This document shows, in pieces, positions 18,140-33,004 of a DNA stretch of 64,000 nucleotides (position 1 is its first letter; each line of letters starts with the position of its first letter). Below the pieces are notes generated by a model. The model saw only the letters and a program-made list of their open reading frames with translations. It was not told where the DNA came from and searched no databases. The stretch spans positions 37,295 through 101,294 of the forward strand of contig CAKZLH010000165.1 of NCBI GenBank assembly GCA_937125285.1, given 5' to 3'. The position numbers and the translations under genes were made by a program. The stretch comes from an uncultured Balneolaceae bacterium. Its GTDB lineage: Bacteria; Bacteroidota; Rhodothermia; Balneolales; Balneolaceae.

Positions 18140-18148
18140 TAAATTAAA

Positions 18149-18179
18149 TTTGCGCTAAAGAAAAATATATTTATCTTTG
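18149..18179 (+). promoter_or_regulatory. candidate Bacteroidota-type promoter of the defence operon (-33 TTTG / -7 TATCTTTG)
   Basis: TTTG at 18149-18152 and TAnnTTTG at 18172-18179, 19 nt apart, 17 nt upstream of the ATG at 18196. Confidence 0.4.
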
Positions 18180-18193
18180 TAGAAATTCTACAA
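18177..18193. promoter_or_regulatory. palindromic operator candidate O2 (TTGTAG-N5-CTACAA)
   Basis: Same half-sites as O1, centre-to-centre distance 54 bp; overlaps the -7 box and ends 3 nt before the start codon. Confidence 0.45.
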
Positions 18194-18195: not shown

Positions 18196-18753
18196 ATGAT
18201 GAAATTAGGAAAAATATCAGATATAAGTTTTGGGTCAGTTACTAGAACTGGTTCAAAAGGGGAAATACCATGTCTTCAAGTTGCTAATATATCAACGGAT
18301 GGAGATTTGGATTTTGATAAGACTTATTATGTAGTAGGTAAGATGAAAGGAGATCATGTTTTACTTCCTTCAAACAGTATAGTATTACCGGCGAAGGGGC
18401 AAAAGTTTTCTTCTGCATTAATAACCGAAGAGCAGTCAAATACTTTTGTAGCGAGTTCATCACTATTTGTGATTCAAGTCAATACTCGTTCAATTATTCC
18501 TGAATATCTGCAATGGTACTTAAATCAGTCTAAAATTAAATGGCGGTTAGAATCACTGTCTACGGGTTCAAACATTTCCTCGTTATCAATAAAAGAGTTG
18601 AGGAATCTTAGAGTTGAGGTGCCTGAGTTAGATATTCAGAGAAAAATCGTTGAACTAAAGAAGATGCAGGAAAAGGAATTAGTTCTTATTCAAAGGCTTG
18701 GCCAAAAAAGAAAAAAATTAATCGAAGCAATAACGAAAGAGTTAATACAATGA
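18196..18753 (+). CDS. hsdS: type I R-M specificity subunit, half-size (single target-recognition domain)
   Basis: 185 aa with one TRD and one C-terminal conserved helix (RKIVELKKMQEKELVLIQRLGQKRKKLIEAI); its stop overlaps the hsdM start. Confidence 0.65.
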   Translation: MMKLGKISDISFGSVTRTGSKGEIPCLQVANISTDGDLDFDKTYYVVGKMKGDHVLLPSNSIVLPAKGQKFSSALITEEQSNTFVASSSLFVIQVNTRSIIPEYLQWYLNQSKIKWRLESLSTGSNISSLSIKELRNLRVEVPELDIQRKIVELKKMQEKELVLIQRLGQKRKKLIEAITKELIQ

Positions 18754-20240
18754 CAGAAGAAATTACCCAGGATAAAATCAACTCCGTAGCATGGAGTGCT
18801 TGCGATACATTTAGAGGTGTTGTTGATCCATCTGAATACAAGAACTACATACTTGTATTCTTGTTCATTAAATATCTATCTGATTTGAGAAAAGATCGCC
18901 TTACCGAGCTTAACGCTCAATATGATGGAGATGAGGTAAGAATTGATCGGGCTTTAAAGCGTGAGCGATTTGTATTGCCAAAGCACTGTACGTATGACCA
19001 CATCTATACAAAAAGAAATGAGGCGAATATCGGTGAAATTATTAACAAAGCACTCCATGATATTGAAGAGAATAACAAAGAGAAGTTGGAAGGCGTATTT
19101 CGGAATATTGATTTTAACTCCACTACAGCCCTTGGAGAAACAAAAGACCGTAATTCCCGCCTTAAAAGCTTAATTGAAGATTTTAGTGATCCAGTGTTGG
19201 ATTTCAGGCCTTCGAAAATTGGTAAGAAAGATGTTATTGGGAATACCTACGAGTATTTGATTCAGAATTTTGCTTCAGATGCAGGAAAGAAAGGAGGGGA
19301 GTTTTATACACCTTCCGAAGTGTCTGAGCTCATGGCGGAACTGTTGAAGCCACAGGAAAAAGAACGGTTGTACGATCCAACTTGTGGTTCCGGGTCATTA
19401 TTGATCAAACTAGCCAAACAGGTGGGGAGTCGTGATTATTCAGTATTTGGTCAGGAGAGCAACGGTAGTACCTGGGCATTATGCAAGATGAACATGTTCT
19501 TACACGACATTGATAATGCGCGGATCGAATGGGGCGATACTATTAAAAACCCAAAATTGTATATCGACGACAAACTCATGAAGTTTGACGTTGTGGCTGC
19601 AAATCCTCCGTTTTCCTTGAAAAAGTGGGGAGAAGCTGAAGCTGAGAATGATCGCTATAACAGGTTTTGGAGAGGAATTCCGCCGAAAACAAAAGGGGAT
19701 TACGGCTTCATTTCACATATGGTGGAAAGCCTTAACGAACATGGTAGGATGGTTGTAGTAGTTCCACATGGTGTACTTTTTAGAGGGAGTAGAGAAGCTA
19801 AGATCAGGGAGCAGTTTATAAAGGAAAACCTATTAGATGCTGTAATAGGCTTGCCCGAGCAATTATTCTTCGGGACTGGTATCCCGGCTGCTTTATTGGT
19901 TTTCAAAAAACGTCGTGAACGTGAAGATGTACTTTTTATCGATGCCAGTAAGGAATATCAGGATGGGAAAAAACAGAACAAACTGCGCGATCAAGACATT
20001 CAAAAAATTGTAAGCACGTATGAGGCTTTTGAGACGAAAGATAAGTACAGTTATGTTTCTACCATAGATGAAATAAAGGAGAACGAGTTTAATCTCAACA
20101 TCCCAAGGTATGTAGATACGTTTGAGGAAGAAGAAGAGATTGATATAGCTGAAGTACAGAAAGAGATTGAGAGCCTTGAGACAGAGCTTGCCGAAGTGAA
20201 AGGGAAGATGAATGAATACCTAAAGGAATTGGGGTTCTAA
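18750..20240 (+). CDS. hsdM: type I R-M N6-adenine DNA methyltransferase
   Basis: 496 aa; N-terminal HsdM domain, AdoMet motif DPTCGSGSLL, catalytic AANPPFS. Confidence 0.92.
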   Translation: MTEEITQDKINSVAWSACDTFRGVVDPSEYKNYILVFLFIKYLSDLRKDRLTELNAQYDGDEVRIDRALKRERFVLPKHCTYDHIYTKRNEANIGEIINKALHDIEENNKEKLEGVFRNIDFNSTTALGETKDRNSRLKSLIEDFSDPVLDFRPSKIGKKDVIGNTYEYLIQNFASDAGKKGGEFYTPSEVSELMAELLKPQEKERLYDPTCGSGSLLIKLAKQVGSRDYSVFGQESNGSTWALCKMNMFLHDIDNARIEWGDTIKNPKLYIDDKLMKFDVVAANPPFSLKKWGEAEAENDRYNRFWRGIPPKTKGDYGFISHMVESLNEHGRMVVVVPHGVLFRGSREAKIREQFIKENLLDAVIGLPEQLFFGTGIPAALLVFKKRREREDVLFIDASKEYQDGKKQNKLRDQDIQKIVSTYEAFETKDKYSYVSTIDEIKENEFNLNIPRYVDTFEEEEEIDIAEVQKEIESLETELAEVKGKMNEYLKELGF

Positions 20241-20241
20241 G

Positions 20242-21399
20242 ATGCCTGTAGAGAGAGCAAGAAAATCAGTTGGGTCAAAAATTTCAAGGCAACTCTGGAT
20301 GCAATCAGGAGGAAGGTGTGAATATTGTAACAAACTACTTTATAGGGATAGTCTTACCGAGCGCTTTATGAACAAGGCTTACATTTCACATATTATTGCC
20401 GCCAAAGAGGGATTTGTAAGGGGGGATTCAAAGTTGTCTGAAGAGCTGGAGGTGGCTTTTGAAAATCTAATGCTCTTATGTGATGAATGTCATAATAGAA
20501 TCGACAAAGCTGATCCTGCTCGACATACTGTTGAAGTGCTACAAAAAATTAAAAAGACTCATGAGGATCGGATTGAATTACTAACTGCGATAAAACCGAA
20601 GAATAAATCTCATATCCTAACCTTCATGGCAAAAATTGGTGAGCATCTTCCTGTAATCGACTTTCAGGATGCTGCAAATGCAATGCTTACCGATTATTAC
20701 CCCGCTTCCCATAGAATGGTTGAATTAGGTATTGAAAACTATCCTAAAGAGGATGATGAGGATGAATACTGGCAGGTACTTGAAAGTACTTTGACTGAGA
20801 ATTTCCAAACAAAAGTTTCCCCTTTGTTAAAATCAGGAGAAGTAAATCATTTTTCTGTTTTTGGGTTAGCCCCTCAACCATTATTGATAAGATTAGGGGT
20901 TCTTTTATCTGATATTAAACATGTTAGAGTTCATACTAATATAAGAGAGCCACAAACATGGAAACATCCCGAAGATGGAGACTCATTAGATTTTCAAATC
21001 GTTGAACCGGAGGATAAGACGGGGCTTCCAGTATTGAATATCTCTGTTACAGCGGATATTAATGAATCAAGGATTCATTCGGTTCTCGGAGAACATGTCT
21101 CCATTTGGAAGCTTACGGTTCCAATACCAGGGAAAGATCTTGTACGCTCTGATCGTACACTGCAGTATTTTAGAAAACGTGTGAGAGAGGTTTTTGAACA
21201 AATTAAACGAGCACATGGTGAGGATGAAACCTTGCGTGTATTCCCGGCAATGCCGAATTCAACAGCCATTGAGTTTGGAAGAGTTTGGCAACCTAAAGCT
21301 GAATTACCCATGATCATTTACGATCAGAATAGAAAACGGGACGGATTTATCAAGACGGTATCAATAATTAAACCCAAGAGGACTCAATATGTTAGCTGA
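20242..21399 (+). CDS. cap5: CBASS effector, HNH endonuclease fused to a SAVED domain (Cap5-like)
   Basis: 385 aa; HNH CEYCN...SHIIA...NLMLLCDECHNRID; C-terminal SAVED-like HFSVFGLAPQPLLIRLGVLL; starts 2 nt after the hsdM stop. Confidence 0.75.
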   Translation: MPVERARKSVGSKISRQLWMQSGGRCEYCNKLLYRDSLTERFMNKAYISHIIAAKEGFVRGDSKLSEELEVAFENLMLLCDECHNRIDKADPARHTVEVLQKIKKTHEDRIELLTAIKPKNKSHILTFMAKIGEHLPVIDFQDAANAMLTDYYPASHRMVELGIENYPKEDDEDEYWQVLESTLTENFQTKVSPLLKSGEVNHFSVFGLAPQPLLIRLGVLLSDIKHVRVHTNIREPQTWKHPEDGDSLDFQIVEPEDKTGLPVLNISVTADINESRIHSVLGEHVSIWKLTVPIPGKDLVRSDRTLQYFRKRVREVFEQIKRAHGEDETLRVFPAMPNSTAIEFGRVWQPKAELPMIIYDQNRKRDGFIKTVSIIKPKRTQYVS

Positions 21400-22909
21400 A
21401 ACCCAGGAAAAACAGAAATATGGTAAGGTACTTGATGAGATGGCTAAGTCTCTGGATCTTACCGAAAATCAATTCAAAGAGGCCGAAGACCGGTATAAAG
21501 CAGTAGGAGAGTATCTTTCAAGAGATGGATCCTCCTTGGCCAGTTTTAACCCTTCTATTGAACCACAAGGTTCTTTTTTATACGGAACAATGGTTCGGCC
21601 AATACTTGATGACGGGCACTACGATATCGATTTGATATGTATCCTTGAAAACCTCCCACTTACAGACACCCAGAAAGACCTAAAGAAAAAGGTTGGGAAA
21701 GAACTGAAAACAGGGAGATACGAACATTTATTGGATGAAGAAGGTCAGCGTTGCTGGACGTTGAATTACGCCGAAGGAACCAAGTTTCATATGGATATTC
21801 TTCCATCAACACCCGACCAATTTCGTAGGACTATTTATGAAGGTAGAGTAGATGAGTCATACTATAATTATGCGCTACGGATGACGGATAAAGAATCTGA
21901 AAGTTATGAATCATCTAATCGTATGGATTGGCCTAAAACTAATCCAAAAGGGTACTCAAAATGGTTTAAAGACCAAATGAGACCACAGTATGATAAACTG
22001 ATTAAGGAAGCAGCTTTGCAATTGAATGCCAGTGTTGAAGATGTGCCACATTGGAAAGTAAAAACTCCGCTACAACGAGCAATCCAGATTCTGAAACGTC
22101 ACCGGGATATTATGTTTGGAGGTGATGATGAAAAGCCAATATCTATCATTCTTACTACTCTTGCCGCTAAAGCATATCGAGGAGAAAGTAATGTTTTTGA
22201 TGCTTTGAAAACGATTCTCGGTGGTATGGAGCATTACATTGAGGAAGAATTCAATGGGTATAATCGTATCAAAGTGGTTAAGAACCCAGTGAATCCGGAA
22301 GAAAACTTTGCAGATAAATGGGAGCATAACCCCACCCTGAAAGATAACTTTTATCTCTGGTTAGCTAAGGCCAAAACAGATCTGATTGAAGTGTTTGATC
22401 TGGGTACCATCTATTCTGCAAAATCCCAACTCGAAACTTCGATGGGTAAGAGTTTAGTCGAAAATGCATACTCAAAAATTGGGGTACCAACACTATCACA
22501 GCCAAGAAAAGCCAGAAATCTACCAGTTGCCACCCATAAACAAGCTCCAAAATGGCCGGTAGTTAAAACGCACAGTGTCTCGGTTATCGGTAGATATAAT
22601 GAAAATGGAACATGGAAGTACATTTCGGAGGGTACGGTAATACCTAAGGGATGCAGTTTAATGTTCGCTGCAAATACCTCTGTGACTGGAAACTTTGAAG
22701 TGTTTTGGCAGATTGTGAACACTGGGTATGAAGCACAAATGGCTAAGTGCTTACGTGGGCAAATACTGCACTCAAAAACTGCGGGTAGAGGCGGGTTGAA
22801 ACAGAAAGAAGCAACCGCCTATAAAGGCACTCACTGGATTGAGTGCTTTATTGTACAGGGTGGAGTATGCGTGGCCAGAAGTGGTGAATTTATCGTGGAG
22901 ATTGGTTGA
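21389..22909 (+). CDS. CD-NTase/SMODS nucleotidyltransferase with a C-terminal extension (AGS-C-like)
   Basis: 506 aa; Pol-beta NTase motifs QGSFLYGTMVRP...DIDLICIL and KFHMDILPS; about 130 extra C-terminal residues; overlaps cap5 by 11 nt. Confidence 0.75.
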   Translation: MLAETQEKQKYGKVLDEMAKSLDLTENQFKEAEDRYKAVGEYLSRDGSSLASFNPSIEPQGSFLYGTMVRPILDDGHYDIDLICILENLPLTDTQKDLKKKVGKELKTGRYEHLLDEEGQRCWTLNYAEGTKFHMDILPSTPDQFRRTIYEGRVDESYYNYALRMTDKESESYESSNRMDWPKTNPKGYSKWFKDQMRPQYDKLIKEAALQLNASVEDVPHWKVKTPLQRAIQILKRHRDIMFGGDDEKPISIILTTLAAKAYRGESNVFDALKTILGGMEHYIEEEFNGYNRIKVVKNPVNPEENFADKWEHNPTLKDNFYLWLAKAKTDLIEVFDLGTIYSAKSQLETSMGKSLVENAYSKIGVPTLSQPRKARNLPVATHKQAPKWPVVKTHSVSVIGRYNENGTWKYISEGTVIPKGCSLMFAANTSVTGNFEVFWQIVNTGYEAQMAKCLRGQILHSKTAGRGGLKQKEATAYKGTHWIECFIVQGGVCVARSGEFIVEIG

Positions 22910-24168
22910 TGTCTAATACAGAAACAAATATGGACGGCTATAAGAAAACCAAACTTGGGTGGATTCCTGAAGAATGGGATTTCATTAAAATGGGTGAAAA
23001 AGTTGATTTATTGACTGGGTACCCATTTTCAAGTAATAGTTATTCTAATAAAGGGATTCGATTATTGCGTGGAGCAAATATTAAGAGAGGAGAGCTTAGT
23101 TGGGGAGACGATATTACAGTTTATTGGGATAATCATTTTGATAAACTGGATAAATTTGAACTCAGATTAGGAGATTTAGTAATTGCGATGGATGGTTCTC
23201 TTGTAGGTAGAAGTTTCGCTCAGGTAAACTCCAGTGATTTACCAAGTTATCTACTTCAACGAGTAGCAAGAATTCGGTCTGAAGAATTGGATATAAATTT
23301 CCTTAAGCACCTAATTAGTAGCATGCATTTTGTAAGATATTGTGACTCAGTCAAAACTGTTACGGCAATACCTCATATAAGCTCAAAGGATTTAAATAAT
23401 TTTAGTATACCTACTCCTTCATATACCGAACAAAAAAAGATTGCCGAAATCCTCTCCACCTGGGATGAAGCCATCCAGAAAACCGAAGCCCTCATTAAGA
23501 AGAAAGAGAGGCTGAAAAAGGGGCTGATGCAGCAGTTATTGACGGGTAAAAGGCGGTTGCCGGGTTTTAATGATAAATGGAGGGAAGTTAAGTTGGGTAA
23601 ACTCATAAGTACCTTTTCAGGCGGGACTCCAAGTCGACAAAAACAAGAGTATTATAATGGTAGTATACCTTGGATAAAGTCAGGTGAACTAAACCAGAGA
23701 AGAATACATACTACTGAAGAAAAGATTAGTTCTGAAGCATTAGCTAAATCTTCTGCAAAGCTAGTTCACAAAGGTGCCTTATTGCTAGCTATTTATGGAG
23801 CAACAGCAGGGGTGATTTCTGTAAATATGATGAGCAGTGCAGCAATTAATCAGGCAATTTTAGCTTTAATCCCACTCGATAATAAGATTGATATCGGTTT
23901 TCTTGAATTGTGGTTCTTATACAATAAAGACAAAATAATACACACATTTACACAGGGGGGGCAGCCTAACCTGAGTGCAAAAATAGTGAAGTCATTAAAA
24001 CTTAATTGTCCCTCAATTGAAGAACAGAAGCGAATTTCAAGACTCCTTTTTGCAATAGAGGATGACATACAAGGTCTAAAGGTATTATCGGATTGTATTA
24101 AATCACAGAAGAAAGGATTAATGCAGCAGCTATTAACTGGTAAGACAAGGGTAAAAGTAAACAAATAA
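22909..24168 (+). CDS. hsdS: type I R-M specificity subunit, full length (two TRDs)
   Basis: About 419 aa; the conserved repeat GLMQQLLTGK(R/T)R occurs twice; the ATG at 22909 overlaps the TGA of the CD-NTase gene (the track uses TTG at 22906). Confidence 0.9.
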   Translation: MSNTETNMDGYKKTKLGWIPEEWDFIKMGEKVDLLTGYPFSSNSYSNKGIRLLRGANIKRGELSWGDDITVYWDNHFDKLDKFELRLGDLVIAMDGSLVGRSFAQVNSSDLPSYLLQRVARIRSEELDINFLKHLISSMHFVRYCDSVKTVTAIPHISSKDLNNFSIPTPSYTEQKKIAEILSTWDEAIQKTEALIKKKERLKKGLMQQLLTGKRRLPGFNDKWREVKLGKLISTFSGGTPSRQKQEYYNGSIPWIKSGELNQRRIHTTEEKISSEALAKSSAKLVHKGALLLAIYGATAGVISVNMMSSAAINQAILALIPLDNKIDIGFLELWFLYNKDKIIHTFTQGGQPNLSAKIVKSLKLNCPSIEEQKRISRLLFAIEDDIQGLKVLSDCIKSQKKGLMQQLLTGKTRVKVNK

Positions 24169-24178
24169 AGAAAGACCT

Positions 24179-24463
24179 ATGACAAGTGAAGAGTTATATG
24201 AGATACTGAACAATTTTGGTGAACAAAACTTACACCGACTTGGCTTTGAAGAGAAGGATGGATTCTGGATGCATCCTAATTCTACTCGAAGATTTCAAGT
24301 AAGCGATAAAAGATTATATGTATATATCAATGAACTAAATGTTGGAAGGTTAAATGCAGCTTTTAATGATCCTGTCAAGCTGTATCAAACCTTTATCGAA
24401 ACGGAAATTCTTCCAACTGAAACTCACTTTCAGTTCTTAAGAGAACAGGGCTTGGAAGTGTGA
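24179..24463 (+). CDS. hypothetical protein
   Basis: 94-aa ORF on the operon strand; no family recognised. Confidence 0.4.
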   Translation: MTSEELYEILNNFGEQNLHRLGFEEKDGFWMHPNSTRRFQVSDKRLYVYINELNVGRLNAAFNDPVKLYQTFIETEILPTETHFQFLREQGLEV

Positions 24464-24496
24464 AAGTCTTTAATTCACATATAATCGGGTTTAAAA

Positions 24497-24991
24497 ATGG
24501 ATGAACTTAAAAATAGTATAATTAAAGAGGCATTTAGGATTGAAGAAGACACAAATCATAGTGCCAGATGCCATTTTAATGCAGCAGCTAGATGGGAAAG
24601 CGTACATTATAAAATAGGGTTGCCATCTGTTATTGCTGTTGCTTTATCAGGTGGAGCATTTATAGGGGAACAAACAGCAATTGGGATAACCTTGGCTGCT
24701 ATTTCAACAGGATTGACGACCACTTTGACATTTCTAAAGCCATCAGAAAAAGCAGAGACTCATAGTATTGCAGGAAACCAATATTTAAGTCTCAGAAATC
24801 AAACAAGGATATTTCGCGAGGTAGATCTTTTAAAATCTTTCGATGTGGACGAAGCAACAACTCAGATAAAAAAGTTGGCAATTGAAAGAGATGATTTAAA
24901 TCAAAATTCTCCATCATTTAGTAGGAAAGATTACGAGAAGGCTAAGAAGAGTATTGAAGGTGGTGAAACGACACATGGGGTAGATAGCTGA
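24497..24991 (+). CDS. SLATT-domain two-TM protein (predicted membrane effector)
   Basis: 164 aa; N-terminal helix with HSARCHFNAAARW, then two TM helices (LPSVIAVALSGGAF / ITLAAISTGLTTTLTF) and a helical tail, the SLATT architecture as recalled. Confidence 0.6.
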   Translation: MDELKNSIIKEAFRIEEDTNHSARCHFNAAARWESVHYKIGLPSVIAVALSGGAFIGEQTAIGITLAAISTGLTTTLTFLKPSEKAETHSIAGNQYLSLRNQTRIFREVDLLKSFDVDEATTQIKKLAIERDDLNQNSPSFSRKDYEKAKKSIEGGETTHGVDS

Positions 24992-25806
24992 TGACAGTGA
25001 ATGGCTATCTTACAAGTATAGCAAAGAAAGCTATAATTAGAGATCAAGAAAAAAAAAGTATTGAGACATCTATTGGTGCATTAAAAAACCGAGTTGAGCA
25101 GTATTTTGGTTCTAATGTTAGCAATCATTTTCAGTTTGGTTCATCTGTGAGAAAAACAATGCTACCTCGAAATTTGGATATTAAATCAGATGTAGATTAT
25201 ATGATTGTATTTAGGGACGATGGCTATCGTCCTCAGACCTATTTAAACCAAATTAGAAGCTTTGTTGAAACAAAGTATTCAAGATCTGAGATTAAACAAT
25301 CAAATCCATCGATCATACTTTTGTTAAGTCATATAAATTTTGAATTGGTTCCAGCATTATCAAGTTTGATGAGTGTTTGTGAATATCGTATTCCTGATAA
25401 ATCCTCATCTTATAATGATTGGATTAGTACATCACCACTTGTTCATGATACTAATCTAGCAAACTCAAACAAGGAGTATAATTATCAAATTAAACCTTTA
25501 ATTCGGATTCTAAAATATTGGAATGCAATCAATAAATATCCATTCAATTCGTATGAATTAGAATGTTTAATCTTAGATTATTTCAACGTGCACCCATTCC
25601 TTTTTGAATACTCTAGTTCTAAAACATTGGCAGATTACCTATTCGAATTTATTACAAATTTAAATTTAAGTTGGAATGATCCAGATTGGAAAAGAAATAA
25701 AATTACTCAGCTCAAAAATCATGTTTATAAAATCAAGGTTTTAATACAAAGAAACAATGAGTTAGGTGCTGTAACTGAGTTAAAAAAACTAATACCCCTT
25801 ACATAA
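24991..25806 (+). CDS. SMODS-family minimal nucleotidyltransferase
   Basis: 271 aa; FGSSVRKTMLPRNLDIKSDVDYMIVF (GS...DxD) and NFELVPA; the start overlaps the SLATT stop (TGATG). Confidence 0.65.
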   Translation: MTVNGYLTSIAKKAIIRDQEKKSIETSIGALKNRVEQYFGSNVSNHFQFGSSVRKTMLPRNLDIKSDVDYMIVFRDDGYRPQTYLNQIRSFVETKYSRSEIKQSNPSIILLLSHINFELVPALSSLMSVCEYRIPDKSSSYNDWISTSPLVHDTNLANSNKEYNYQIKPLIRILKYWNAINKYPFNSYELECLILDYFNVHPFLFEYSSSKTLADYLFEFITNLNLSWNDPDWKRNKITQLKNHVYKIKVLIQRNNELGAVTELKKLIPLT

Positions 25807-25816
25807 CTAATAAACA

Positions 25817-26308
25817 ATGGATTGGTATAAAATTATTGAGAGCGTGATACAAATTGGGATTACTGGAGTAGCCGCTTTAATTGTAACATGGTTTTATAGC
25901 AAAAAGCAGAGTGATTTAAGCCATGATGAGTTTCAGAGAGATCTATTTAGGGAGCTAAATCATCGTTATGATGCTCTTAATGATAATCTTCACGATATAT
26001 ATGAACTTCAAAAGAAATCTGAATCATCATTAAGTTTAAAGAAGCTTTCAATTAAGTCACCAGAATTACTAAAGTGCCTAAATGACTATCTAAATCTTTG
26101 TGCTGAGGAATATTTTTGGTACAAAAAAGGAAGGGTAGATGATGCTGTATGGAAATCGTGGAATATTGGTATGAATTGGTGGTATAGTAAATTGCAACCA
26201 CTTCAGGAGCTTTGGGATGAGGAGAAAGAAAATGGAAATTTTGAATCCTATTATTTGGAAGCTGGTGAAGACTTATTTGATAGTTCTACAAAAGTCTCCG
26301 TAAGATGA
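25817..26308 (+). CDS. hypothetical single-TM protein
   Basis: 163 aa; N-terminal TM (VIQIGITGVAALIVTWF) and a Trp-rich helical C-terminal part; its stop overlaps the hsdR start (ATGA). Confidence 0.45.
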   Translation: MDWYKIIESVIQIGITGVAALIVTWFYSKKQSDLSHDEFQRDLFRELNHRYDALNDNLHDIYELQKKSESSLSLKKLSIKSPELLKCLNDYLNLCAEEYFWYKKGRVDDAVWKSWNIGMNWWYSKLQPLQELWDEEKENGNFESYYLEAGEDLFDSSTKVSVR

Positions 26309-29300
26309 ATACTCCCTCATACCTAGAAGACCATTCCAGCCAAATTCCAGCTTTAATGCTTTTGCAAAAGATGGGTTTCTCATATTTGAGTCCATCGGAG
26401 GTGGATGAGCTTCGTGGTAGTAGCTCCCAGGTATTATTAAAACCAGTTCTGGATGAGTGCCTTCGCAATATAAATCATATCGATTTTCGCGGAAAAAGGT
26501 ATCCATTTTCTAATCACAATATTACCAGTGCCGTACAAAAGATAAGTGACCTACCACTGGTAGATGGGCTGATTAAAACCAATGAGAATCTATATCACAT
26601 TCTTACCTTAGGTAGCAGTTTCGAGGAAACTATAGAGGGGGATAAAAAGAGCTTTACACTAAAGTATGTCGATTGGGAGCATCCGGAGAATAACCAGTAT
26701 CATGTGGCTGAGGAGTTCAGTGTACAACGAGTGGGTAGCTACAAAGAATACCGACCTGACATTGTGCTGTTTGTAAATGGAATTCCACTCGTAGTCCTTG
26801 AGAGCAAACGCCCTGATCTGAAAGTAAAAGAAAAGGATCAGAACCCTGTCGAACAAGCAGTATCACAGCATTTACGAAATCAAAAGCATGACGGTATACC
26901 AAACTTGTATGTGTATTCCCAAATGCTATTGAGTCTGGCAGTAAACGAAAATAAATATGCGACTACGGGCACTCCTCAAAAGTTTTGGAGTACCTGGAAA
27001 GAGAAGTTTGACACGTTAAGTGAAGAAAAAGAATACGAGGATACCATACGTTCTCTTGTTAATCAAAAGCTGCAAGATTCAGACTTTGATAAACTATTCT
27101 CGGAACGCTTTAACTACGTTAAATCCTATTTCCAGGCTTTACAAGATCAAGAGCTTTCAATTACCGATCAGGATAAAATTCTTTACGGGTTATGTAGGCC
27201 GGAAAGATTATTACGATTTATAAAGCGATATACATTATATGATGCAGGTCTAAAAAAAGTAGCCCGATATCAACAGTTTAATGCTGTCGAAAAGACATTA
27301 GAACGAATTCGCCTTTTAGAATCGGGTAAAAGAACGGGCGGTGTAATATGGCACACTCAAGGCTCAGGGAAATCACTTACTATGGTGATGCTTGCAAAAG
27401 GGATTGCTTTGGATGGCAGCATCCCTGATGCACGCATCGTATTGGTTACTGATCGAGTGGATTTAGATGATCAGATCTATAAAACCTTTGACGATTGTGA
27501 TTTGGAACCGGTACAGGCTGCAACAGGCAATCATTTAATATCCTTACTCAGGGAAAAAAAGCGAGCCGTAATAACTACTATCATAAATAAGTTTGAAGCG
27601 GTGGTTAAAAAAAGCAAGGTTAAAGAGGACTCACCCAATATTTTTGTGTTGGTGGATGAAGGTCACCGAACCCAATACGGAACAGCCAATATCCGAATGC
27701 AGCAAACGTTCCCTAATGCGTGCTTTATTGCGTTTACTGGTACTCCTTTAATGAAGAAGGAGAAGAATACAGCCAGAAAATTTGGTGGTACAATTGATAC
27801 CTATACCATTAAAGAAGCCGTAGAAGACAAAGCTGTGGTTCCATTGTTATATGAAGGCAGACACATACCACAGCAAGTCAATAAGACTCCCATTGACACC
27901 TACTTTGAACGTATTTCTGTGCGCTTAAATGAAAAAGAAAAAGCCGATTTAAAAAAGAAGTTCAGTCGTTCTGAGCAGCTTAATGAAGCAGAGCAAAAAT
28001 TGATGACGATCTGCTATGATATTAGTGATCATTACTCTAAGACCTGGCAAGGGACGGGATTCAAAGGTCAATTAACGGTGCATTCCAAAACGGCGGCTAT
28101 CAAGTGTAAACAGTTTCTGGATGAATTTGGGAAAGTGACATCTGATGTGATAATATCTCCGCCAGACACCCGTGAAGGACATGAAGATATAGACGATGAT
28201 CACACAGATATTGTACAGAAATTCTGGAAAAAAATGATGGAGAGATTTGGCACTGAGAAGGAATACAACAAACAGTTGATATACCGTTTTAAAAGTGATG
28301 AAGCTCCGGAAATCATGATTGTGGTTGATAAGCTAATCACTGGATTTGATGCACCAAGGAATATTGTACTGTATATTGCACGAAGTTTAAAAGAGCACAA
28401 ACTTCTACAAGCAATTGCCAGAGTAAATCGTCTTCATGAAGGGAAAGATTTCGGTTACATCATCGACTACTATGGAATTTTAGGGGAGCTGGATGAAGCA
28501 TTAACTACCTATAGTGAATTGGAAGACTTCGATCAGCAGGAGCTTGAAGGAACCCTTTCAGATATACATGAAGAGATAGAGAAATTACCGGAGCGTCATT
28601 CTCATGTATGGGATATTTTTAAAGGGATGGATAGAAGTTTGGACAGCCAGAAGTATGAATTATTCTTGGATGATGAAGCATTAAGAGATGAGTTTTATGA
28701 TCGGGTTTCCATCTTTTCGAGGACGTTGAAATTGGCTCTTTCCACCTTTGATTTTGTTCAGGAAACAGATCCTAAGAAAGTTGCAGAGTATAAAGAAGAC
28801 GCAAAATTCTTTATGAGTCTTAGAGCATCTGTTAAAGCCAGGTATTCGGACGCTGTAGATTATCGTCAGTACGAAAAGCAGGTTCAGAAACTCATTGATA
28901 CTCATGTCACCTCAAGCGAAATAGTTAAGCTTACCGAACAAGTAAATATATTTGATCGGGAGAAATTTGAGGAAGAGCTGGCAAAAGTAGAAGGGGACGC
29001 GGCACGTGCTGATCGAATTGCATCTCGTACCCAAAAAACGATAAGCATGGTCATGGAAGAAGATCCTGCCTTGTATAAAAAGTTCTCTGAAATGTTGATG
29101 CAAACCATCAATGACTGGAAAGCTCGTAGACTATCGGATGCTCAATACCTGAATAAGGTGAAAGAGATCATGGAAAAAGTTCGGAGTAGATCTGATAGTG
29201 AGGTACCAGAAGAACTTGAAGGGAAAAAAGTGGCTCATGCCGTATATGGGGTAGTGAACGAAGTTCTAAAGGTAGAGGAAGAATCTGTTACATACGGTAC

Positions 29301-29514
29301 AAGCACACCTTCAATGGGTTTAAAAATTGATGAGATTATCCAAAAGCATTTAGTTGTTGACTGGCAACATAAAACTGATGTGAAAAATGCAATGCGACAG
29401 GATATTGATGACTACTTGTTTTCACTTAGAAATGAAGGTGTTGAGCTTACTATTGAGGAAATAGACACCATAATTGAGAAATCCATCGAACTAGCAATAC
29501 GGAATTATTCATGA
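26305..29514 (+). CDS. hsdR: type I restriction enzyme R subunit (helicase-nuclease)
   Basis: 1069 aa; N-terminal nuclease region (RPDIVLFVNGIPLVVLESK), Walker A HTQGSGKSLTM, DEAH-like VLVDEGHRTQ, motif VI QAIARVNR. Confidence 0.93.
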   Translation: MNTPSYLEDHSSQIPALMLLQKMGFSYLSPSEVDELRGSSSQVLLKPVLDECLRNINHIDFRGKRYPFSNHNITSAVQKISDLPLVDGLIKTNENLYHILTLGSSFEETIEGDKKSFTLKYVDWEHPENNQYHVAEEFSVQRVGSYKEYRPDIVLFVNGIPLVVLESKRPDLKVKEKDQNPVEQAVSQHLRNQKHDGIPNLYVYSQMLLSLAVNENKYATTGTPQKFWSTWKEKFDTLSEEKEYEDTIRSLVNQKLQDSDFDKLFSERFNYVKSYFQALQDQELSITDQDKILYGLCRPERLLRFIKRYTLYDAGLKKVARYQQFNAVEKTLERIRLLESGKRTGGVIWHTQGSGKSLTMVMLAKGIALDGSIPDARIVLVTDRVDLDDQIYKTFDDCDLEPVQAATGNHLISLLREKKRAVITTIINKFEAVVKKSKVKEDSPNIFVLVDEGHRTQYGTANIRMQQTFPNACFIAFTGTPLMKKEKNTARKFGGTIDTYTIKEAVEDKAVVPLLYEGRHIPQQVNKTPIDTYFERISVRLNEKEKADLKKKFSRSEQLNEAEQKLMTICYDISDHYSKTWQGTGFKGQLTVHSKTAAIKCKQFLDEFGKVTSDVIISPPDTREGHEDIDDDHTDIVQKFWKKMMERFGTEKEYNKQLIYRFKSDEAPEIMIVVDKLITGFDAPRNIVLYIARSLKEHKLLQAIARVNRLHEGKDFGYIIDYYGILGELDEALTTYSELEDFDQQELEGTLSDIHEEIEKLPERHSHVWDIFKGMDRSLDSQKYELFLDDEALRDEFYDRVSIFSRTLKLALSTFDFVQETDPKKVAEYKEDAKFFMSLRASVKARYSDAVDYRQYEKQVQKLIDTHVTSSEIVKLTEQVNIFDREKFEEELAKVEGDAARADRIASRTQKTISMVMEEDPALYKKFSEMLMQTINDWKARRLSDAQYLNKVKEIMEKVRSRSDSEVPEELEGKKVAHAVYGVVNEVLKVEEESVTYGTSTPSMGLKIDEIIQKHLVVDWQHKTDVKNAMRQDIDDYLFSLRNEGVELTIEEIDTIIEKSIELAIRNYS

Positions 29515-30209
29515 AAAGTATTACCTATGGTAATCATCAAATCGAATTTGAACTCAATTTTTCAAGCAGAAAAACGCTTGGTTTGACTGTGTATCCCGAT
29601 CAAACAGTGGTCGTTAATGCTCCATTAGGAACAGAGTATGAAAGCGTAGAAAAGAAAGTAAAGTCGAAAGCTCGATGGATTCTAAAACAACTTCGGCAAT
29701 TTGAGAAATATTTGCCGAATACAAAGAAAAAGGAATATGTATCCGGTGAAACCCATCTATATCTAGGTAGGCAATACATTCTAAAAATCACGTCTAATTC
29801 TGGGGCTTCTAGCCATGTAAAATTGAAAGGAAGGTATTTGAATGTGCAGGTAAATAATAAAAGAAGGGTAGAGGCTACTTTAAAAGAATGGTACAGAGCA
29901 AGAGCTAGTATTCATTTCCAGACTATTGTAGAAGATCTGCTTCCAGAATTTGAGAATCACGATCTTAAAGTGAAAGAATTGAAGATTCGTGAAATGAAAA
30001 AAAGATGGGGTAGTTGTACTACAGAAGGGGTTATTACCTTAAATAGTGAATTGATAAAAGCACCGAAACGATGTATTCAATATGTAATCCTGCACGAACT
30101 TTGTCACCTGATTTATCATAAACATGATGCTAATTTCTACCGACTTTTGAATTCAATGATGCCAAACTGGAAACGTTGGAAAGAAAAGCTGGAGATAACT
30201 TTGGCATAA
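29511..30209 (+). CDS. M48/YgjP-like (DUF45) zinc metallopeptidase
   Basis: 232 aa; HELCHL (HExxH) near the C-terminus; the start overlaps the hsdR stop. Confidence 0.75.
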   Translation: MKSITYGNHQIEFELNFSSRKTLGLTVYPDQTVVVNAPLGTEYESVEKKVKSKARWILKQLRQFEKYLPNTKKKEYVSGETHLYLGRQYILKITSNSGASSHVKLKGRYLNVQVNNKRRVEATLKEWYRARASIHFQTIVEDLLPEFENHDLKVKELKIREMKKRWGSCTTEGVITLNSELIKAPKRCIQYVILHELCHLIYHKHDANFYRLLNSMMPNWKRWKEKLEITLA

Positions 30210-30229
30210 CACTTTAAGCTGACTCACTC

Positions 30230-31534
30230 ATGTTAAAAATATTCAAAGGGGTAGAAAGATTACATGTAATTAAGGCCTCTGAAATTCTAAAGCAAAAGGA
30301 TATAGTAATAAGTCCCAGACAACAGTACTGGGTAAGAATGCCAGATGGCAATGAGTGGCCCTATAAAGAACTTGTAAGAGAATCGGTCTACCAAGCAACT
30401 AAAATTATACTAGGAGATGAATTTCAGAGCAATGAAACCAATAGATCGAAATTTGAGAGTCTATACGACCTTGAAATCGTAGATTATAAGAAGCTTCCAT
30501 CTGTTGAATACTTATGTGAAAGGCTTAAAAGTAATTTCAAGAATATTTGGAGATGTGCGGATTCTGCTAAATGGTATATCCTTAAAAACACAAACCTGTT
30601 TACGTTTGATTGGTTTGATTCTGAAGTAAACTACTTAGGTAAAAGAAAGGAGAAAATAGGAAAAGGTAAAATGTCTATATATCCGTGGGTAAATGAACTG
30701 AGGATAGGTGATCTTATTTTCGTAATGAGTAAAAATCATTATTTCGGGACAGCCATAGCTAGATCAGAGTATAATTGGAGAGGCCCATTATTAGACATTG
30801 GTGGGGGGCGCAAGAAACCCGCTATTAAAGTAGAATATTTACATAAGTTAGATCAGCCAATTCTTCATGAGTTGAAGACCCATAATAGGCCAACCACATT
30901 TGCTAACATAGAGCACTATAGTTTTGGGTTATACAATACTCTTAGTTTTTTGAAAGACAGATTGCCGGGTGTATATGAGTCATTGAATGTTGTTGTTCAG
31001 GAAGTTGAGTACCCATCAAAAGTGCCAAGTGAAGCACTGGAATATATTGGGCAATCTAATCCTCCATCGTCTATTATAAGTTTTATATCAGATTCTCCAA
31101 GTTTTAAGGCTAACGAAGTCGACTACGAGAAAGAACATAGAAGAAATAAAGAAAAAGGAGATTTTGGAGAACGATACTTCGAATCATTGATTGAAAAGAA
31201 CCCAGATTTAATCGAGTTAGGTAGTCCTATTGCGAATATAGAAAAACAGAAGGATGGGGTTGGATATGATTATATGGTGAACACAGAAGATGGCAACCTG
31301 TACTATATTGAAATCAAATCTACTACTAGTTCAGCAAGTACTCCATTTTATATGTCTCATAATGAGAGGTCTTTTATGAAACAAGAATGCGAGAATTATA
31401 GGCTGATTAGATTCTACGATCTAAAACAAAAAAGAAGAGAAGGGTCATTTTTTGTACTAACTGCTAATGAGTTAAAATCAGGAGAATTCGATTTCAAGCC
31501 TACTAATTTTGAGATTTCCAGAACATTAAGTTGA
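30230..31534 (+). CDS. DUF3883-type PD-(D/E)xK nuclease-fold protein with N-terminal putative reader domains
   Basis: 434 aa; C-terminal GDFGERYFE...GVGYDYMV...YYIEIKST...FYMSHNERSF...YRLIRFY matches the DUF3883 pattern as recalled; the N-terminal domains were not identified. Confidence 0.55.
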   Translation: MLKIFKGVERLHVIKASEILKQKDIVISPRQQYWVRMPDGNEWPYKELVRESVYQATKIILGDEFQSNETNRSKFESLYDLEIVDYKKLPSVEYLCERLKSNFKNIWRCADSAKWYILKNTNLFTFDWFDSEVNYLGKRKEKIGKGKMSIYPWVNELRIGDLIFVMSKNHYFGTAIARSEYNWRGPLLDIGGGRKKPAIKVEYLHKLDQPILHELKTHNRPTTFANIEHYSFGLYNTLSFLKDRLPGVYESLNVVVQEVEYPSKVPSEALEYIGQSNPPSSIISFISDSPSFKANEVDYEKEHRRNKEKGDFGERYFESLIEKNPDLIELGSPIANIEKQKDGVGYDYMVNTEDGNLYYIEIKSTTSSASTPFYMSHNERSFMKQECENYRLIRFYDLKQKRREGSFFVLTANELKSGEFDFKPTNFEISRTLS

Positions 31535-33000: not shown

Positions 33001-33004
33001 AAAA

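What the first reader, a model, noticed from the sequence alone, without database searches (positions are those of the whole stretch)
18196..31534. Thirteen-gene, translationally coupled operon in which a type I R-M system is interleaved with two cyclic-nucleotide-type modules
Seen: all 13 ORFs are on one strand with overlapping or abutting stops and starts (18750/18753, 20240/20242, 21389/21399, 22907/22909, 24989/24991, 26305/26308, 29511/29514). The order is hsdS-half, hsdM, [HNH-SAVED, CD-NTase], hsdS, [94 aa, SLATT, SMODS, 1-TM protein], hsdR, M48 peptidase, DUF3883. Established: defence genes cluster, and the E. coli prr locus embeds the PrrC anticodon nuclease between hsdS and hsdR, where it is held latent by the R-M proteins. 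Inference: the embedded abortive-infection-type modules here may be co-expressed with the R-M complex, or even gated by it. This would be a layered system rather than neighbouring independent systems.
Basis: partly seen in the sequence, partly recalled or inferred. Interest (0 to 1): 0.7.

Follow-up and report, generated by a model that had tools for sequence, protein, structure and literature searches.

The report
Restriction operon carrying two embedded CBASS modules
A bacterial DNA-restriction (type I R-M) operon carries two small cyclic-nucleotide suicide-defence modules between its own genes; this is a clean new example of the already documented habit of defence genes nesting inside restriction operons, not a new kind of system.

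Summary
Window 18196-31534 has 12 (not 13) same-strand genes with junctions of -11 to +33 nt: half-HsdS, HsdM, [Cap5, CD-NTase+AGS_C], HsdS, [p94, SLATT_4, SMODS, p163], HsdR, YgjP/M48 peptidase and a NOV_C/DUF3883 protein. All family calls are confirmed.

About 60 hsdR-related loci from many phyla share one backbone: half-HsdS-HsdM-[slot 1]-HsdS-[slot 2]-HsdR-M48. Both slots are occupied in 38 of 56 loci. The cargo is nearly always on the same strand and highly variable (Fic, RhuM, Shedu, TIR, HEPN, RT, patatin-CBASS and others). The nearest relatives swap cargo, and the breakpoints fall inside conserved genes.

Relatives of both CBASS modules also occur outside R-M loci. They are nonetheless often embedded: 9 of 25 assessable CD-NTase relatives and 4 of 8 SMODS relatives.

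A conserved pair of palindromes and a -7-like box lie just upstream of the first gene, which points to one regulated promoter.

The best reading is autonomous CBASS cargo that is co-transcribed and co-inherited with an intact R-M system, as in the published EPEC RptR-RM-DarTG-M48 island. PrrC-style gating is not supported but not excluded. The operon lies in a 30-kb island beside tRNA-Asn. It is a new member of a known kind, of modest interest.

The parts
16169..16241 (+). tRNA-Asn (GTT), the chromosomal landmark at the left edge of the island
   Evidence: ARAGORN and Rfam (69 bits). It is conserved (87% over 78 nt) at the same side of the related island in L002.
16233..16408 (.). Left copy of a 176-nt direct repeat. 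It starts in the last 9 nt of tRNA-Asn and overlaps the 3' end of the recombinase gene.
   Evidence: the repeat finder family D1: 99% identical to 46276-46451, spacing 30043 nt.
46276..46451 (.). Right copy of the 176-nt direct repeat, marking the right end of the ~30-kb island
   Evidence: The genes beyond it are host-type LacI and SusC/SusD.
16290..17990 (-). Large serine recombinase, divergent from the operon
   Evidence: Pfam Resolvase, Recombinase and Zn_ribbon_recom.
18123..18139 (.). Distal palindrome TTGTAG-N5-CTACAA (operator-like)
   Evidence: Exact match; 0.9 matches expected by chance at up to 2 mismatches. Conserved in L002, L004 and L005.
18172..18179 (+). TATCTTTG, a match to the Bacteroidetes-type -7 promoter motif TAnnTTTG, 17 nt before the first ATG
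   Evidence: It is identical in L002. The motif alone is not enriched in the window, so only its position and conservation count as evidence.
18177..18193 (.). Proximal palindrome TTGTAGAAATTCTACAA, overlapping the -7 box and abutting the start codon
   Evidence: The 51-54 nt spacing to the distal site is kept in all four loci.
18196..18753 (+). Half-size HsdS (one target-recognition domain plus one conserved helix); first gene of the backbone
   Evidence: Pfam Methylase_S and PDB HsdS hits. It is only 24% identical to the full HsdS. A homologue sits in the same position in 50 of 54 assessable loci.
18750..20240 (+). HsdM, N6-adenine methyltransferase (NPPF and DPTCGSGS motifs present)
   Evidence: Pfam HsdM_N and N6_Mtase, E 6e-110; PADLOC MTase_I; motifs read.
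20242..21399 (+). Cap5-type CBASS effector, HNH nuclease fused to a SAVED sensor (slot 1 cargo)
   Evidence: Pfam SAVED E 2e-46 and HNH; PADLOC Effector/SAVED_HNH E 2e-142.
21389..22909 (+). CD-NTase (SMODS/DncV-like nucleotidyltransferase) with a C-terminal AGS_C sensor domain (slot 1 cargo)
   Evidence: Pfam; PADLOC cyclase PDLC00770 E 2e-173 over the full length; GS and DxD motifs read.
22906..24168 (+). Full-length HsdS with two target-recognition domains (probable start ATG 22909)
   Evidence: Pfam Methylase_S, two stretches; PADLOC Specificity_I E 9e-85; 419-aa gene call in L001.
24179..24463 (+). p94, an orphan 94-aa protein (slot 2 cargo or accessory)
   Evidence: No Pfam, PADLOC or NCBIfam hit. 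Only 4 other 94-95-aa cluster representatives match at E <= 0.001 among 1.84 billion. AF2 pLDDT 94.6, with no fold match. Among the hsdR-related loci it is present only in L002, L004 and L005.
24497..24991 (+). SLATT_4 two-transmembrane CBASS effector (slot 2 cargo)
   Evidence: Pfam SLATT_4; NCBIfam E 1e-37; PADLOC 2TM effector E 2e-59.
24991..25806 (+). Minimal SMODS cyclase partnered with SLATT (slot 2 cargo)
   Evidence: Pfam SMODS E 4e-32; PADLOC cyclase PDLC00769 E 3e-95.
25817..26308 (+). p163, an N-terminal transmembrane helix plus a helical domain with the NLCAEEYFWYKKGR motif; an independent single-gene cargo
   Evidence: No family hit. 20 homologues. It is also embedded in a different type I R-M locus (L082) and sits in a SIR2/McrBC island (L084). 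AF2 pLDDT 86, with no fold match.
26305..29514 (+). HsdR, restriction/translocase subunit (D..ExK nuclease motif, GSGKS, DEGH)
   Evidence: Pfam HSDR_N, SWI2_SNF2, T1R_D3-like and T1RH-like_C; PADLOC REase_I E 2e-224.
29511..30209 (+). YgjP-like (M48-type) zinc metallopeptidase with HELCH; the conserved last gene of the backbone
   Evidence: Pfam YgjP-like E 4e-59, with weaker SprT-like and WLM hits. It follows hsdR in nearly every related locus.
30230..31534 (+). NOV_C/DUF3883 protein; a variable downstream neighbour, not part of the backbone
   Evidence: Pfam NOV_C; PADLOC PDC-S36 E 2e-17. It is shared only with L002. A TAACTTTG -7-like box at 30196-30203 could give it its own promoter.

Best explanation
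The locus is one intact type I restriction-modification operon. It belongs to a widespread lineage with the fixed backbone half-HsdS, HsdM, HsdS, HsdR and a YgjP/M48 peptidase. The two internal junctions, hsdM-hsdS and hsdS-hsdR, act as cargo slots for other defence genes.

In this window slot 1 holds a two-gene type I CBASS: a Cap5 HNH-SAVED effector and a CD-NTase with an AGS_C domain. Slot 2 holds three separate units: the orphan p94, a second two-gene type I CBASS (SLATT_4 pore-type effector plus SMODS cyclase), and the orphan membrane protein p163.

Inferred mechanism:
- The twelve genes are transcribed from one regulated promoter upstream of the half-HsdS gene and are partly translationally coupled.
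- R-M cuts unmodified incoming DNA as the first line of defence.
- Each CBASS module independently senses infection, makes its own nucleotide signal and kills or arrests the cell (DNA degradation by Cap5, membrane disruption by SLATT) if the phage escapes restriction.
- Embedding gives co-regulation and co-inheritance.
- Cargo is exchanged between related R-M operons by homologous recombination in the conserved flanking R-M sequences.

Shown here: the gene content, intact motifs, tight junctions, conserved upstream sites, slot variability, mosaic breakpoints, and the existence of related CBASS pairs outside R-M. Inferred: the single transcript, activity of each system, and their functional independence.
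For: Gene content and motifs:
- Family assignments and catalytic motifs are intact.
- Junctions are 33 nt or shorter, and seven of the eleven overlap or sit within 1 nt. Terminator-like and sigma-70-like sites are not above shuffled expectation.

Upstream region:
- The 205-nt upstream region carries TATCTTTG and two TTGTAG-N5-CTACAA palindromes. They are conserved with the same spacing in L002, L004 and L005 while the flanks diverge.

Conserved backbone and variable slots:
- The backbone is conserved in about 60 loci from Balneolales, Bacteroidia, Chitinophagales, Ignavibacteria, Nitrospirae, Sericytochromatia, Chloroflexi, Planctomycetes, Proteobacteria and others, at 45-91% HsdR identity.
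- Both slots are occupied in 38 of 56 loci, only one slot in 12, and neither in 6. Of the cargo ORFs of at least 100 aa, 164 of 168 are on the operon strand.
- Cargo families are diverse and defence-linked: Fic, RhuM, Bro-N, YhcG, Schlafen/AlbA_2, DUF3800, TIR/ThsB, Shedu, RT, HEPN, Hypoth_Ymh, patatin and SMODS.
- The nearest relatives differ in cargo.

Recombination:
- The window and L002 form a mosaic. Breakpoints lie inside the Cap5 N-terminal (HNH) part, at the hsdS conserved regions, and inside p94 and p163. The last two flank a swap of SLATT-SMODS for Hypoth_Ymh.

Autonomy of the cargo:
- 16 of 25 assessable CD-NTase relatives have no type I R-M within 5 kb.
- SMODS relatives occur in non-R-M contexts.
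- SLATT-nucleotidyltransferase pairs stand alone on Methylobacterium and Rhizobium plasmids.

Published analogue:
- The EPEC island rptR-hsdM-hsdS-darTG-hsdR-M48 is driven by a single repressed promoter (PMC12255303). The general pattern is described in bioRxiv 10.1101/2024.01.29.577857.
Against: - Both CBASS clades sit inside this same R-M lineage more often than I would expect for unrelated defence systems; no background rate was measured here. This holds for 9 of 25 assessable CD-NTase relatives, 8 of them with the same backbone. It also holds for 4 of 8 sampled SMODS relatives, always in the order hsdS-SLATT-SMODS.
- In L095 the cyclase and Cap5 are separated by hsdS, which is hard to see as a simple cassette.
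- Cargo and backbone divergence are moderately correlated (Mantel r 0.3-0.7, small n).
- No transcript data exist. TAnnTTTG matches inside the operon (13 on the + strand) could be internal promoters.
- Whether Balneolaceae use that promoter type was not established.
- No regulator for the palindromes was identified.
Confidence: 0.7

Rival explanations
1. R-M-gated abortive infection, as for PrrC. One or both CD-NTases (or their effectors) are held inactive by the HsdM/HsdS/HsdR complex. They fire when a phage anti-restriction protein disables or remodels the R-M complex. The CBASS modules would then guard the R-M system rather than act as independent sensors.
For: - These particular CBASS clades recur inside one R-M lineage across phyla.
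- The position hsdS-SLATT-SMODS is fixed in 8 loci.
- L095 has a split arrangement, cyclase-hsdS-Cap5.
- Translational coupling of p163 to hsdR and of the CD-NTase to hsdS would favour co-assembly.
- PrrC/EcoprrI is a precedent (own knowledge; cited in 10.1101/2024.01.29.577857 as almost exclusively embedded).
Against: - Related Cap5-CD-NTase and SLATT-SMODS pairs occur without any type I R-M nearby.
- The same backbone accepts dozens of unrelated cargo types and also exists empty.
- The nearest relatives replace SLATT-SMODS with Hypoth_Ymh or Shedu.
- The same CD-NTase clade is found in slot 1 or slot 2.
- The enrichment can be explained by cassette spread through homologous recombination within one R-M lineage.
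Confidence: 0.1
2. Merely adjacent, independently transcribed systems. The slots are recombination hot spots. Each cargo unit brings its own promoter embedded in the upstream coding sequence, so co-orientation is only a by-product of selection against head-on transcription.
For: - TAnnTTTG -7-like motifs occur on the + strand inside the operon. Examples are 20117 (about 120 nt before Cap5), 26111 (about 190 nt before hsdR) and 30196 (27 nt before the DUF3883 gene).
- DUF3883 is not part of the conserved backbone.
- The cargo is autonomous elsewhere.
Against: - Gaps of 33 nt or less, and overlapping stop/start codons at 7 of 11 junctions, leave no room for dedicated regulatory regions.
- The motif is not enriched in the window overall (69 found, 66 expected).
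- hsdS and hsdR would be cut off from the upstream promoter unless transcription reads through the cargo.
- 164 of 168 cargo ORFs across the lineage are co-oriented.
- The published RRDM island is driven from one upstream promoter (PMC12255303).
Confidence: 0.15
3. A decaying R-M locus. The type I system has been broken up by insertions and is no longer functional, and the half-HsdS is a remnant of a disrupted gene.
For: - The first gene is only half the usual HsdS length.
- The locus lies in a mobile island.
Against: - All R-M genes are full length with intact motifs.
- The half-HsdS is only 24% identical to the full HsdS and is not a fragment of it.
- It is conserved in first position in 50 of 54 assessable loci across phyla.
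- There are no frameshifts or stops, and the architecture is maintained at 67-73% nucleotide identity in L004.
- Engineered half-HsdS proteins form active enzymes (PMC2877798).
Confidence: 0.03

Closest known systems
EPEC RRDM island (RptR - type I R-M - DarTG2 - M48), PMC12255303
   Same: The layout is hsdM, hsdS, cargo between hsdS and hsdR, hsdR, then an M48-family metallopeptidase. The cargo is an abortive-infection-type module. There is a single upstream promoter whose -10 region is overlapped by short palindromic repeats. That paper calls the hsdS-hsdR site a possible recombination hot spot.
   Different: - The cargo here is CBASS, not a DarTG toxin-antitoxin pair.
- A second slot (hsdM-hsdS) is also filled.
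- The first gene is a half-size HsdS, not the 79-aa repressor RptR.
- The binder of the palindromes is unknown here.
- The host is Balneolaceae.
- Homology of the two backbones was not tested directly.
E. coli prr locus (PrrC anticodon nuclease inside EcoprrI)
   Same: An abortive-infection effector is encoded between type I R-M genes on the same strand.
   Different: PrrC is held latent by physical contact with the R-M complex and is almost exclusively found embedded (10.1101/2024.01.29.577857). The CBASS clades here also occur free of R-M, and nothing here shows contact.
Guilt-by-embedding survey of BREX, DISARM, Hma and type I R-M (Payne et al., bioRxiv 10.1101/2024.01.29.577857)
   Same: Defence genes sit between genes of a host defence system, in the same orientation in 96.7% of cases, and co-regulation is proposed. 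Some relatives of this locus carry that paper's candidates (PDC-S05 and PDC-M41 in L007, PDC-S36-like DUF3883 here).
   Different: That text does not mention CBASS, the two-slot backbone with half-HsdS and M48, or p94/p163. Its figures and tables could not be read here.
V. cholerae VPI-2 type I R-M with embedded TgvAB (PMC11411939) and Campylobacter jejuni Rlo genes
   Same: Two or more unrelated defence genes are embedded in a type I R-M cluster. In V. cholerae the embedded system works on its own when cloned separately.
   Different: The cargo there is a GmrSD-like type IV restriction system, only one slot is used, and the R-M lineage is different.
Type I CBASS (cyclase plus effector only), Cap5 and 2TM/SLATT classes
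   Same: Each module is a CD-NTase/SMODS cyclase next to a single effector, with no Cap2/Cap3 or HORMA/TRIP13 accessory genes. There are full-length matches to the PADLOC CBASS cyclase and effector models.
   Different: They have no dedicated regulatory region. They sit inside another system's operon, and in one relative (L095) the pair is split by hsdS.

Membership tests
Type I restriction-modification system | HsdM with an HsdM_N domain, an N6-adenine methyltransferase domain and the NPPF motif | tested here: met
   Pfam E 6e-110 and 4e-28; PADLOC MTase_I; the NPPF motif (in AANPPFS) read.
Type I restriction-modification system | HsdS with two target-recognition domains separated by conserved helices | tested here: met
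   Two Methylase_S stretches. The conserved regions line up with relatives while the recognition domains diverge.
Type I restriction-modification system | HsdR with an N-terminal PD-(D/E)xK nuclease and an SF2 translocase | tested here: met
   HSDR_N, SWI2_SNF2/ResIII and T1R_D3-like domains; GSGKS, DEGH and D..ESK motifs read.
Type I restriction-modification system | Sequence-specific m6A methylation and ATP-dependent restriction | not testable with these tools
   Needs methylome data and restriction assays.
Type I CBASS (Cap5 class) | CD-NTase with the GS...DxD...D active site | tested here: met
   SMODS and DncV-like NTFase domains; PADLOC cyclase E 2e-173; QGSF, YDIDL and HMDIL read.
Type I CBASS (Cap5 class) | Adjacent effector with a SAVED sensor fused to an HNH nuclease | tested here: met
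   SAVED E 2e-46 and HNH; PADLOC SAVED_HNH E 1e-127.
Type I CBASS (Cap5 class) | No Cap2/Cap3 (type II) or HORMA/TRIP13 (type III) accessory genes | tested here: met
   None of the 12 operon proteins matches these. The TRIP13/IetA-like AAA+ protein at 42346-44523 lies 11 kb away on the other strand.
Type I CBASS (2TM/SLATT class) | SMODS cyclase paired with a SLATT two-transmembrane effector | tested here: met
   The same pair and order is seen in L004, L014, L022, L067, L166-L168 and L172.
Type I CBASS (both modules) | Phage-triggered nucleotide signal that activates the effector | not testable with these tools
   Needs biochemistry and phage challenge.
Embedded defence system (sensu Payne et al.) | Cargo lies between genes of a host defence system, all on one strand, with no pseudogenes | tested here: met
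   the lineage survey is.
PrrC-like R-M-gated effector | Cargo family is (almost) confined to type I R-M operons | tested here: not met
   16 of 25 assessable CD-NTase relatives, 4 of 8 SMODS relatives and two plasmid SLATT-NTase pairs lack R-M.
PrrC-like R-M-gated effector | Physical association with, and inhibition by, the R-M complex | not testable with these tools
   Needs pull-down or two-hybrid tests and genetic tests.
Single regulated operon (RRDM-like) | One upstream promoter with operator repeats and no internal terminators | tested here: inconclusive
   In favour: conserved palindromes and a -7-like box upstream, and no terminator signal above chance. Against a firm call: internal -7-like motifs exist, and there are no transcript data.

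The most novel reading that the evidence does not exclude
The half-HsdS-HsdM-HsdS-HsdR-M48 lineage may be more than a passive carrier. It and its recurrent CBASS clades (SLATT_4-SMODS directly after hsdS, and Cap5/CD-NTase-AGS_C) could form a functionally integrated two-layer system. In that system the state of the R-M complex would be the trigger, or a licensing signal, for cyclic-nucleotide synthesis. That state could be inhibition by a phage anti-restriction protein, stalled translocation, or the DNA ends it produces. This would be a CBASS counterpart of PrrC/EcoprrI. The conserved M48/SprT-like peptidase and the orphans p94 and p163 could take part in that coupling.
Probability: 0.1. Interest if true: 0.8.

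Novelty: new member of a known kind. Interest (0 to 1): 0.35.

Why it matters
What activates most CBASS cyclases is still an open question, and this locus is relevant to it. It belongs to a cross-phylum R-M lineage that repeatedly carries the same two CBASS clades. That makes it a compact natural test bed for two questions: whether embedding only gives co-regulation and co-inheritance, or whether R-M status feeds into CBASS activation.

Practically, the two-slot backbone is a good anchor for mining new defence genes by embedding. The half-HsdS, the M48 peptidase and the conserved ends of hsdM, hsdS and hsdR serve as markers. p94, p163 and many unannotated slot ORFs are candidates.

If, as seems most likely, the modules are independent, the locus is one more well-resolved example of a published pattern.

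Tried and rejected
- The sigma-70 promoter and intrinsic-terminator scan was uninformative: counts were at or below shuffled expectation, and the consensus is probably wrong for this phylum. Folding the region after the last gene gave no significant hairpin.
- Phase-variable hsdS shuffling driven by the neighbouring recombinase was rejected. The two hsdS genes are 24% identical, lie on the same strand, and share no direct or inverted repeats. The recombinase is also absent next to the operon in L004 and L005, while the palindromes stay.
- I considered p94 as the operator-binding regulator, because it co-occurs with the palindromes in exactly the same four loci (counting the window). There is no support: the confident AF2 model has no HTH/RHH-like fold and no PDB or BFVD match, and the co-occurrence is confounded by relatedness.
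- The half-HsdS as binder of the palindromes is unlikely. It diverges to 43-48% identity among loci that keep the same palindrome.
- p163 as part of the SLATT-SMODS module was rejected. L014, L022, L067 and L166-L168 have SLATT-SMODS without it, and L002, L082 and L084 have it without SLATT-SMODS.
- Sequence and fold searches for p94 and p163 gave no function.
- The co-divergence (Mantel) test of cargo against backbone was inconclusive with 8-9 loci.
- Burroughs et al. 2015, the original SMODS/SLATT/SAVED paper, could not be opened. I therefore could not check whether it already notes R-M linkage.
- Rfam found nothing but the tRNA.

Full report
**1. Observation**

Between 18196 and 31534 every ORF of at least 90 aa that tiles the region is on the + strand. 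The gaps between consecutive genes are -4, +1, -11, -1 (or -4), +10, +33, -1, +10, -4, -4 and +20 nt.

Pfam, PADLOC and NCBIfam reproduce every family call:
- half-size HsdS
- HsdM
- HNH-SAVED (Cap5)
- CD-NTase with an AGS_C domain
- full HsdS with two recognition domains
- an unassigned 94-aa protein (p94)
- SLATT_4
- SMODS
- an unassigned 163-aa protein with an N-terminal membrane helix (p163)
- HsdR
- a YgjP-like (M48-type) metallopeptidase
- a NOV_C/DUF3883 protein

The catalytic motifs can be read directly in the translations: NPPF in HsdM; GSGKS, DEGH and D..ExK in HsdR; GS and DxD in both cyclases; the HNH motif; and HELCH in the peptidase. The same locus is present at 100% identity on an ENA metagenome contig.

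**2. Host and setting**

The closest HsdR relatives are from Balneola (91%) and other Balneolaceae (76-84%), followed by a drop to about 55%.

The operon lies in a roughly 30-kb island. A 176-nt direct repeat (99% identical) occurs at 16233-16408 and 46276-46451. The left copy begins in the last 9 nt of a tRNA-Asn gene.

Inside the island are:
- a large serine recombinase (16290-17990, minus strand)
- the operon
- YqaJ, DUF932, RadC, VapE-like and primase-polymerase-like genes
- an IetA-like AAA+ gene pair

Outside it are a TonB-dependent receptor on the left and LacI plus SusC/SusD on the right. A Balneola genome (L002) has a related island at the same tRNA-Asn, with a different recombinase at 38% identity.

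**3. The R-M backbone is a conserved lineage with two cargo slots**

I ran tblastn of the window proteins against 80 loci fetched with HsdR. The order half-HsdS, HsdM, HsdS, HsdR, M48 peptidase recurs at 45-91% HsdR identity. It is found in Bacteroidia, Chitinophagales, Ignavibacteria, Nitrospirae, Sericytochromatia, Chloroflexi, Planctomycetes, Spirochaetes, Proteobacteria and other groups.

The half-HsdS homologue sits directly upstream of hsdM in 50 of 54 assessable loci. It is therefore a backbone component, not a remnant. It is only 24% identical to the full HsdS of the same locus. Engineered half-HsdS proteins are known to form active enzymes with symmetric targets (PMC2877798).

Occupancy of the slots in the 56 loci with all three anchors:

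| Slots occupied | Loci |
|---|---|
| Both (hsdM-hsdS and hsdS-hsdR) | 38 |
| Only hsdS-hsdR | 8 |
| Only hsdM-hsdS | 4 |
| Neither | 6 |

Of the cargo ORFs of at least 100 aa, 164 of 168 are on the operon strand. A doubly interleaved layout is therefore the norm for this lineage, not a peculiarity of the window.

**4. What the slots carry**

Pfam scans of the 168 cargo proteins found Fic/DOC, RhuM, Bro-N, YhcG/DUF1016, Schlafen AlbA_2, DUF3800, TIR and ThsB-TIR. They also found Shedu, reverse transcriptases, HEPN families, Hypoth_Ymh, patatin, a SLOG domain, kinases, a few transposases, and SMODS cyclases in 12 proteins.

The nearest relatives already differ in cargo:

| Locus | HsdR identity | Slot 1 | Slot 2 |
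|---|---|---|---|
| L002 | 91% | Cap5 + CD-NTase | p94, a Hypoth_Ymh protein, p163 |
| L004 | 80% | same set as the window | same set as the window |
| L005 | 80% | HEPN_LA2681 pair | Shedu + p94 |
| L007 | 76% | RhuM/PDC-S05, PDC-M41A/B | patatin + DncV-like CD-NTase |

**5. How cargo moves**

The nucleotide comparison of the window with L002 is a mosaic.
- Homology runs through the upstream region, the half-HsdS gene and hsdM.
- It breaks over the N-terminal (HNH) part of Cap5. As a result Cap5 is 63% identical while the adjacent cyclase is 91%.
- It resumes through SAVED, the cyclase and the first 70 nt of hsdS.
- It breaks at each recognition domain of hsdS and resumes at the central and distal conserved regions.
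- It breaks again from the middle of p94 to the start of p163, the interval where SLATT-SMODS is replaced by Hypoth_Ymh.
- It then runs through hsdR, M48 and the DUF3883 gene.

Recombination in conserved backbone or flanking segments therefore swaps both specificity domains and cargo.

**6. Are these CBASS modules tied to R-M?**

*CD-NTase module.* A metagenome scan with a profile of the CD-NTase returned 80 relatives at 35-48% identity.
- 24 of them lie next to type I R-M genes.
- Among the 25 with at least 4 kb on both sides, 9 are embedded (8 in the same backbone) and 16 have no detectable type I R-M within 5 kb.
- The module occurs in slot 1 in most cases and in slot 2 in L035, L115, L156 and L158.
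- In L095 the cyclase is in slot 1 and Cap5 in slot 2, with hsdS between them.

*SMODS module.* Eight homologues on long contigs were looked up.
- Four (45-49% identity) are in the order hsdS-SLATT-SMODS-...-hsdR-YgjP, with a half-HsdS upstream of hsdM.
- Four (43-46%) are elsewhere, with other partners.
- On plasmids, SLATT-nucleotidyltransferase pairs stand alone in Methylobacterium and Rhizobium. In Aeromonas one lies just downstream of a different type I R-M.

Both clades are therefore frequent, but not obligate, residents of this R-M lineage. A Mantel test of cargo against backbone divergence gave r of 0.3-0.7 with 8-9 loci, which is inconclusive.

**7. Regulation**

The only sizeable non-coding stretch is the 205 nt before the first gene. 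It contains TATCTTTG, a match to the Bacteroidetes-type -7 motif, 17 nt before the ATG. It also contains two TTGTAG-N5-CTACAA palindromes at 18123-18139 and 18177-18193. The proximal one overlaps the -7 box and abuts the start codon. Two exact copies are found where 0.9 matches are expected even at two mismatches.

Both sites, with 51-54 nt spacing, are conserved in L002, L004 and L005 while the flanks diverge. They are absent from the other 77 loci.

This resembles the RptR operators of the EPEC RptR-RM-DarTG-M48 island, where one repressed promoter drives the whole island (PMC12255303). The binding protein is unknown. p94 co-occurs with the sites, but its confident model has no DNA-binding fold that I could recognise. 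Internal TAnnTTTG matches exist, notably 27 nt before the DUF3883 gene, so internal promoters cannot be excluded.

**8. The orphans**

p94 is rare: only four other 94-95-aa representatives match at E <= 0.001 among 1.84 billion clusters.

p163 has 20 homologues with an invariant NLCAEE...W..W..G core. They include one directly after hsdS in a different type I R-M that also carries GmrSD cargo, and one in a SIR2/McrBC island. It is an independent single-gene cargo, not part of the SLATT-SMODS module. Neither protein has a family or fold match.

**9. Comparison with what is known**

Embedding of defence genes in type I R-M operons is established. Examples are PrrC, the Campylobacter Rlo genes, TgvAB in V. 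cholerae (PMC11411939) and DarTG2 in EPEC (PMC12255303). There is also a systematic survey reporting 96.7% co-orientation and proposing co-regulation (bioRxiv 10.1101/2024.01.29.577857).

I found no paper in the held library that describes CBASS inside type I R-M, or the two-slot half-HsdS/M48 backbone. However, the figures of the survey and the original SMODS/SLATT paper could not be read.

**10. Verdict**

The locus is best read as an intact type I R-M operon carrying autonomous CBASS and orphan cargo in two recombination-prone slots, probably under one regulated promoter.

Co-expression is plausible. PrrC-style gating is not supported by the comparative evidence, but it is kept alive at about 10% by the recurrent association of these two CBASS clades with this R-M lineage and by the split arrangement in L095.

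It is a new member of a known kind, of modest interest.

Noticed in passing
window 16233-16408 and 46276-46451: A 176-nt direct repeat (99% identical) bounds a ~30-kb island next to tRNA-Asn. The repeat includes the tRNA 3' end, two terminator-like hairpins and what looks like a degenerate second tRNA-Asn 3' half. It also overlaps the last ~39 codons of the serine recombinase gene. Such long repeats are unusual for a serine-recombinase element.
   Followed up: partly
window 40095-44523 (minus strand): A 725-aa double-AAA+ protein matches the PADLOC IetA models (E 4e-63). It overlaps by 11 nt a 753-aa protein with no family hit. This may be an IetAS-like defence pair in the same island.
   Followed up: partly
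window 18123-18193; L002 2107-2177; L004 1551-1619; L005 2572-2637: Two TGTAR-N5-CTACA palindromes 51-54 nt apart lie directly before the half-HsdS start codon. They occur only in the four loci (counting the window) that also encode p94. No candidate DNA-binding protein was found in the operon.
   Followed up: partly
L095 3624-13658: The gene order is half-HsdS, HsdM, CD-NTase, HsdS, Cap5, HsdR, M48, so the CBASS cyclase and its effector are separated by hsdS. Several other loci (L086, L092, L093, L097, L098) have the cyclase directly before hsdS with no Cap5 upstream.
   Followed up: partly
window 20242-20848 vs L002 4224-4821: Nucleotide homology to L002 is lost over roughly the first 200 codons of Cap5 (the HNH nuclease part). 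The SAVED part and the cyclase stay 87% identical in DNA. This looks like an effector-domain swap within a CBASS pair.
   Followed up: no
window 29511-30209 and nearly all of L002-L081: A YgjP-like/M48 metallopeptidase with weaker SprT-like and WLM matches follows hsdR in almost every locus of this R-M lineage, often overlapping its stop codon. Its role is unknown; it might act on the R-M complex itself.
   Followed up: no
L166 3511-3756, L167 3469-3714: In some gammaproteobacterial members of the lineage an 81-aa DUF2188 gene sits between the half-HsdS gene and hsdM.
   Followed up: no
window 25817-26308; L082 6001-6438; L084 6001-6510: The p163 family (N-terminal transmembrane helix, invariant NLCAEE..W..W..G core) recurs inside or beside other defence clusters: a type I R-M with GmrSD cargo, and a SIR2/McrBC island. 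It is a candidate single-gene defence or accessory protein with no known fold.
   Followed up: partly
window 31607-33538 (minus strand): Three small unassigned ORFs (151, 171 and 171 aa) lie between the operon and the YqaJ gene. The 151-aa protein is cysteine-rich (weak FYVE-like zinc-finger hit). The third (33023-33538) is 77% identical to a protein in L002.
   Followed up: no
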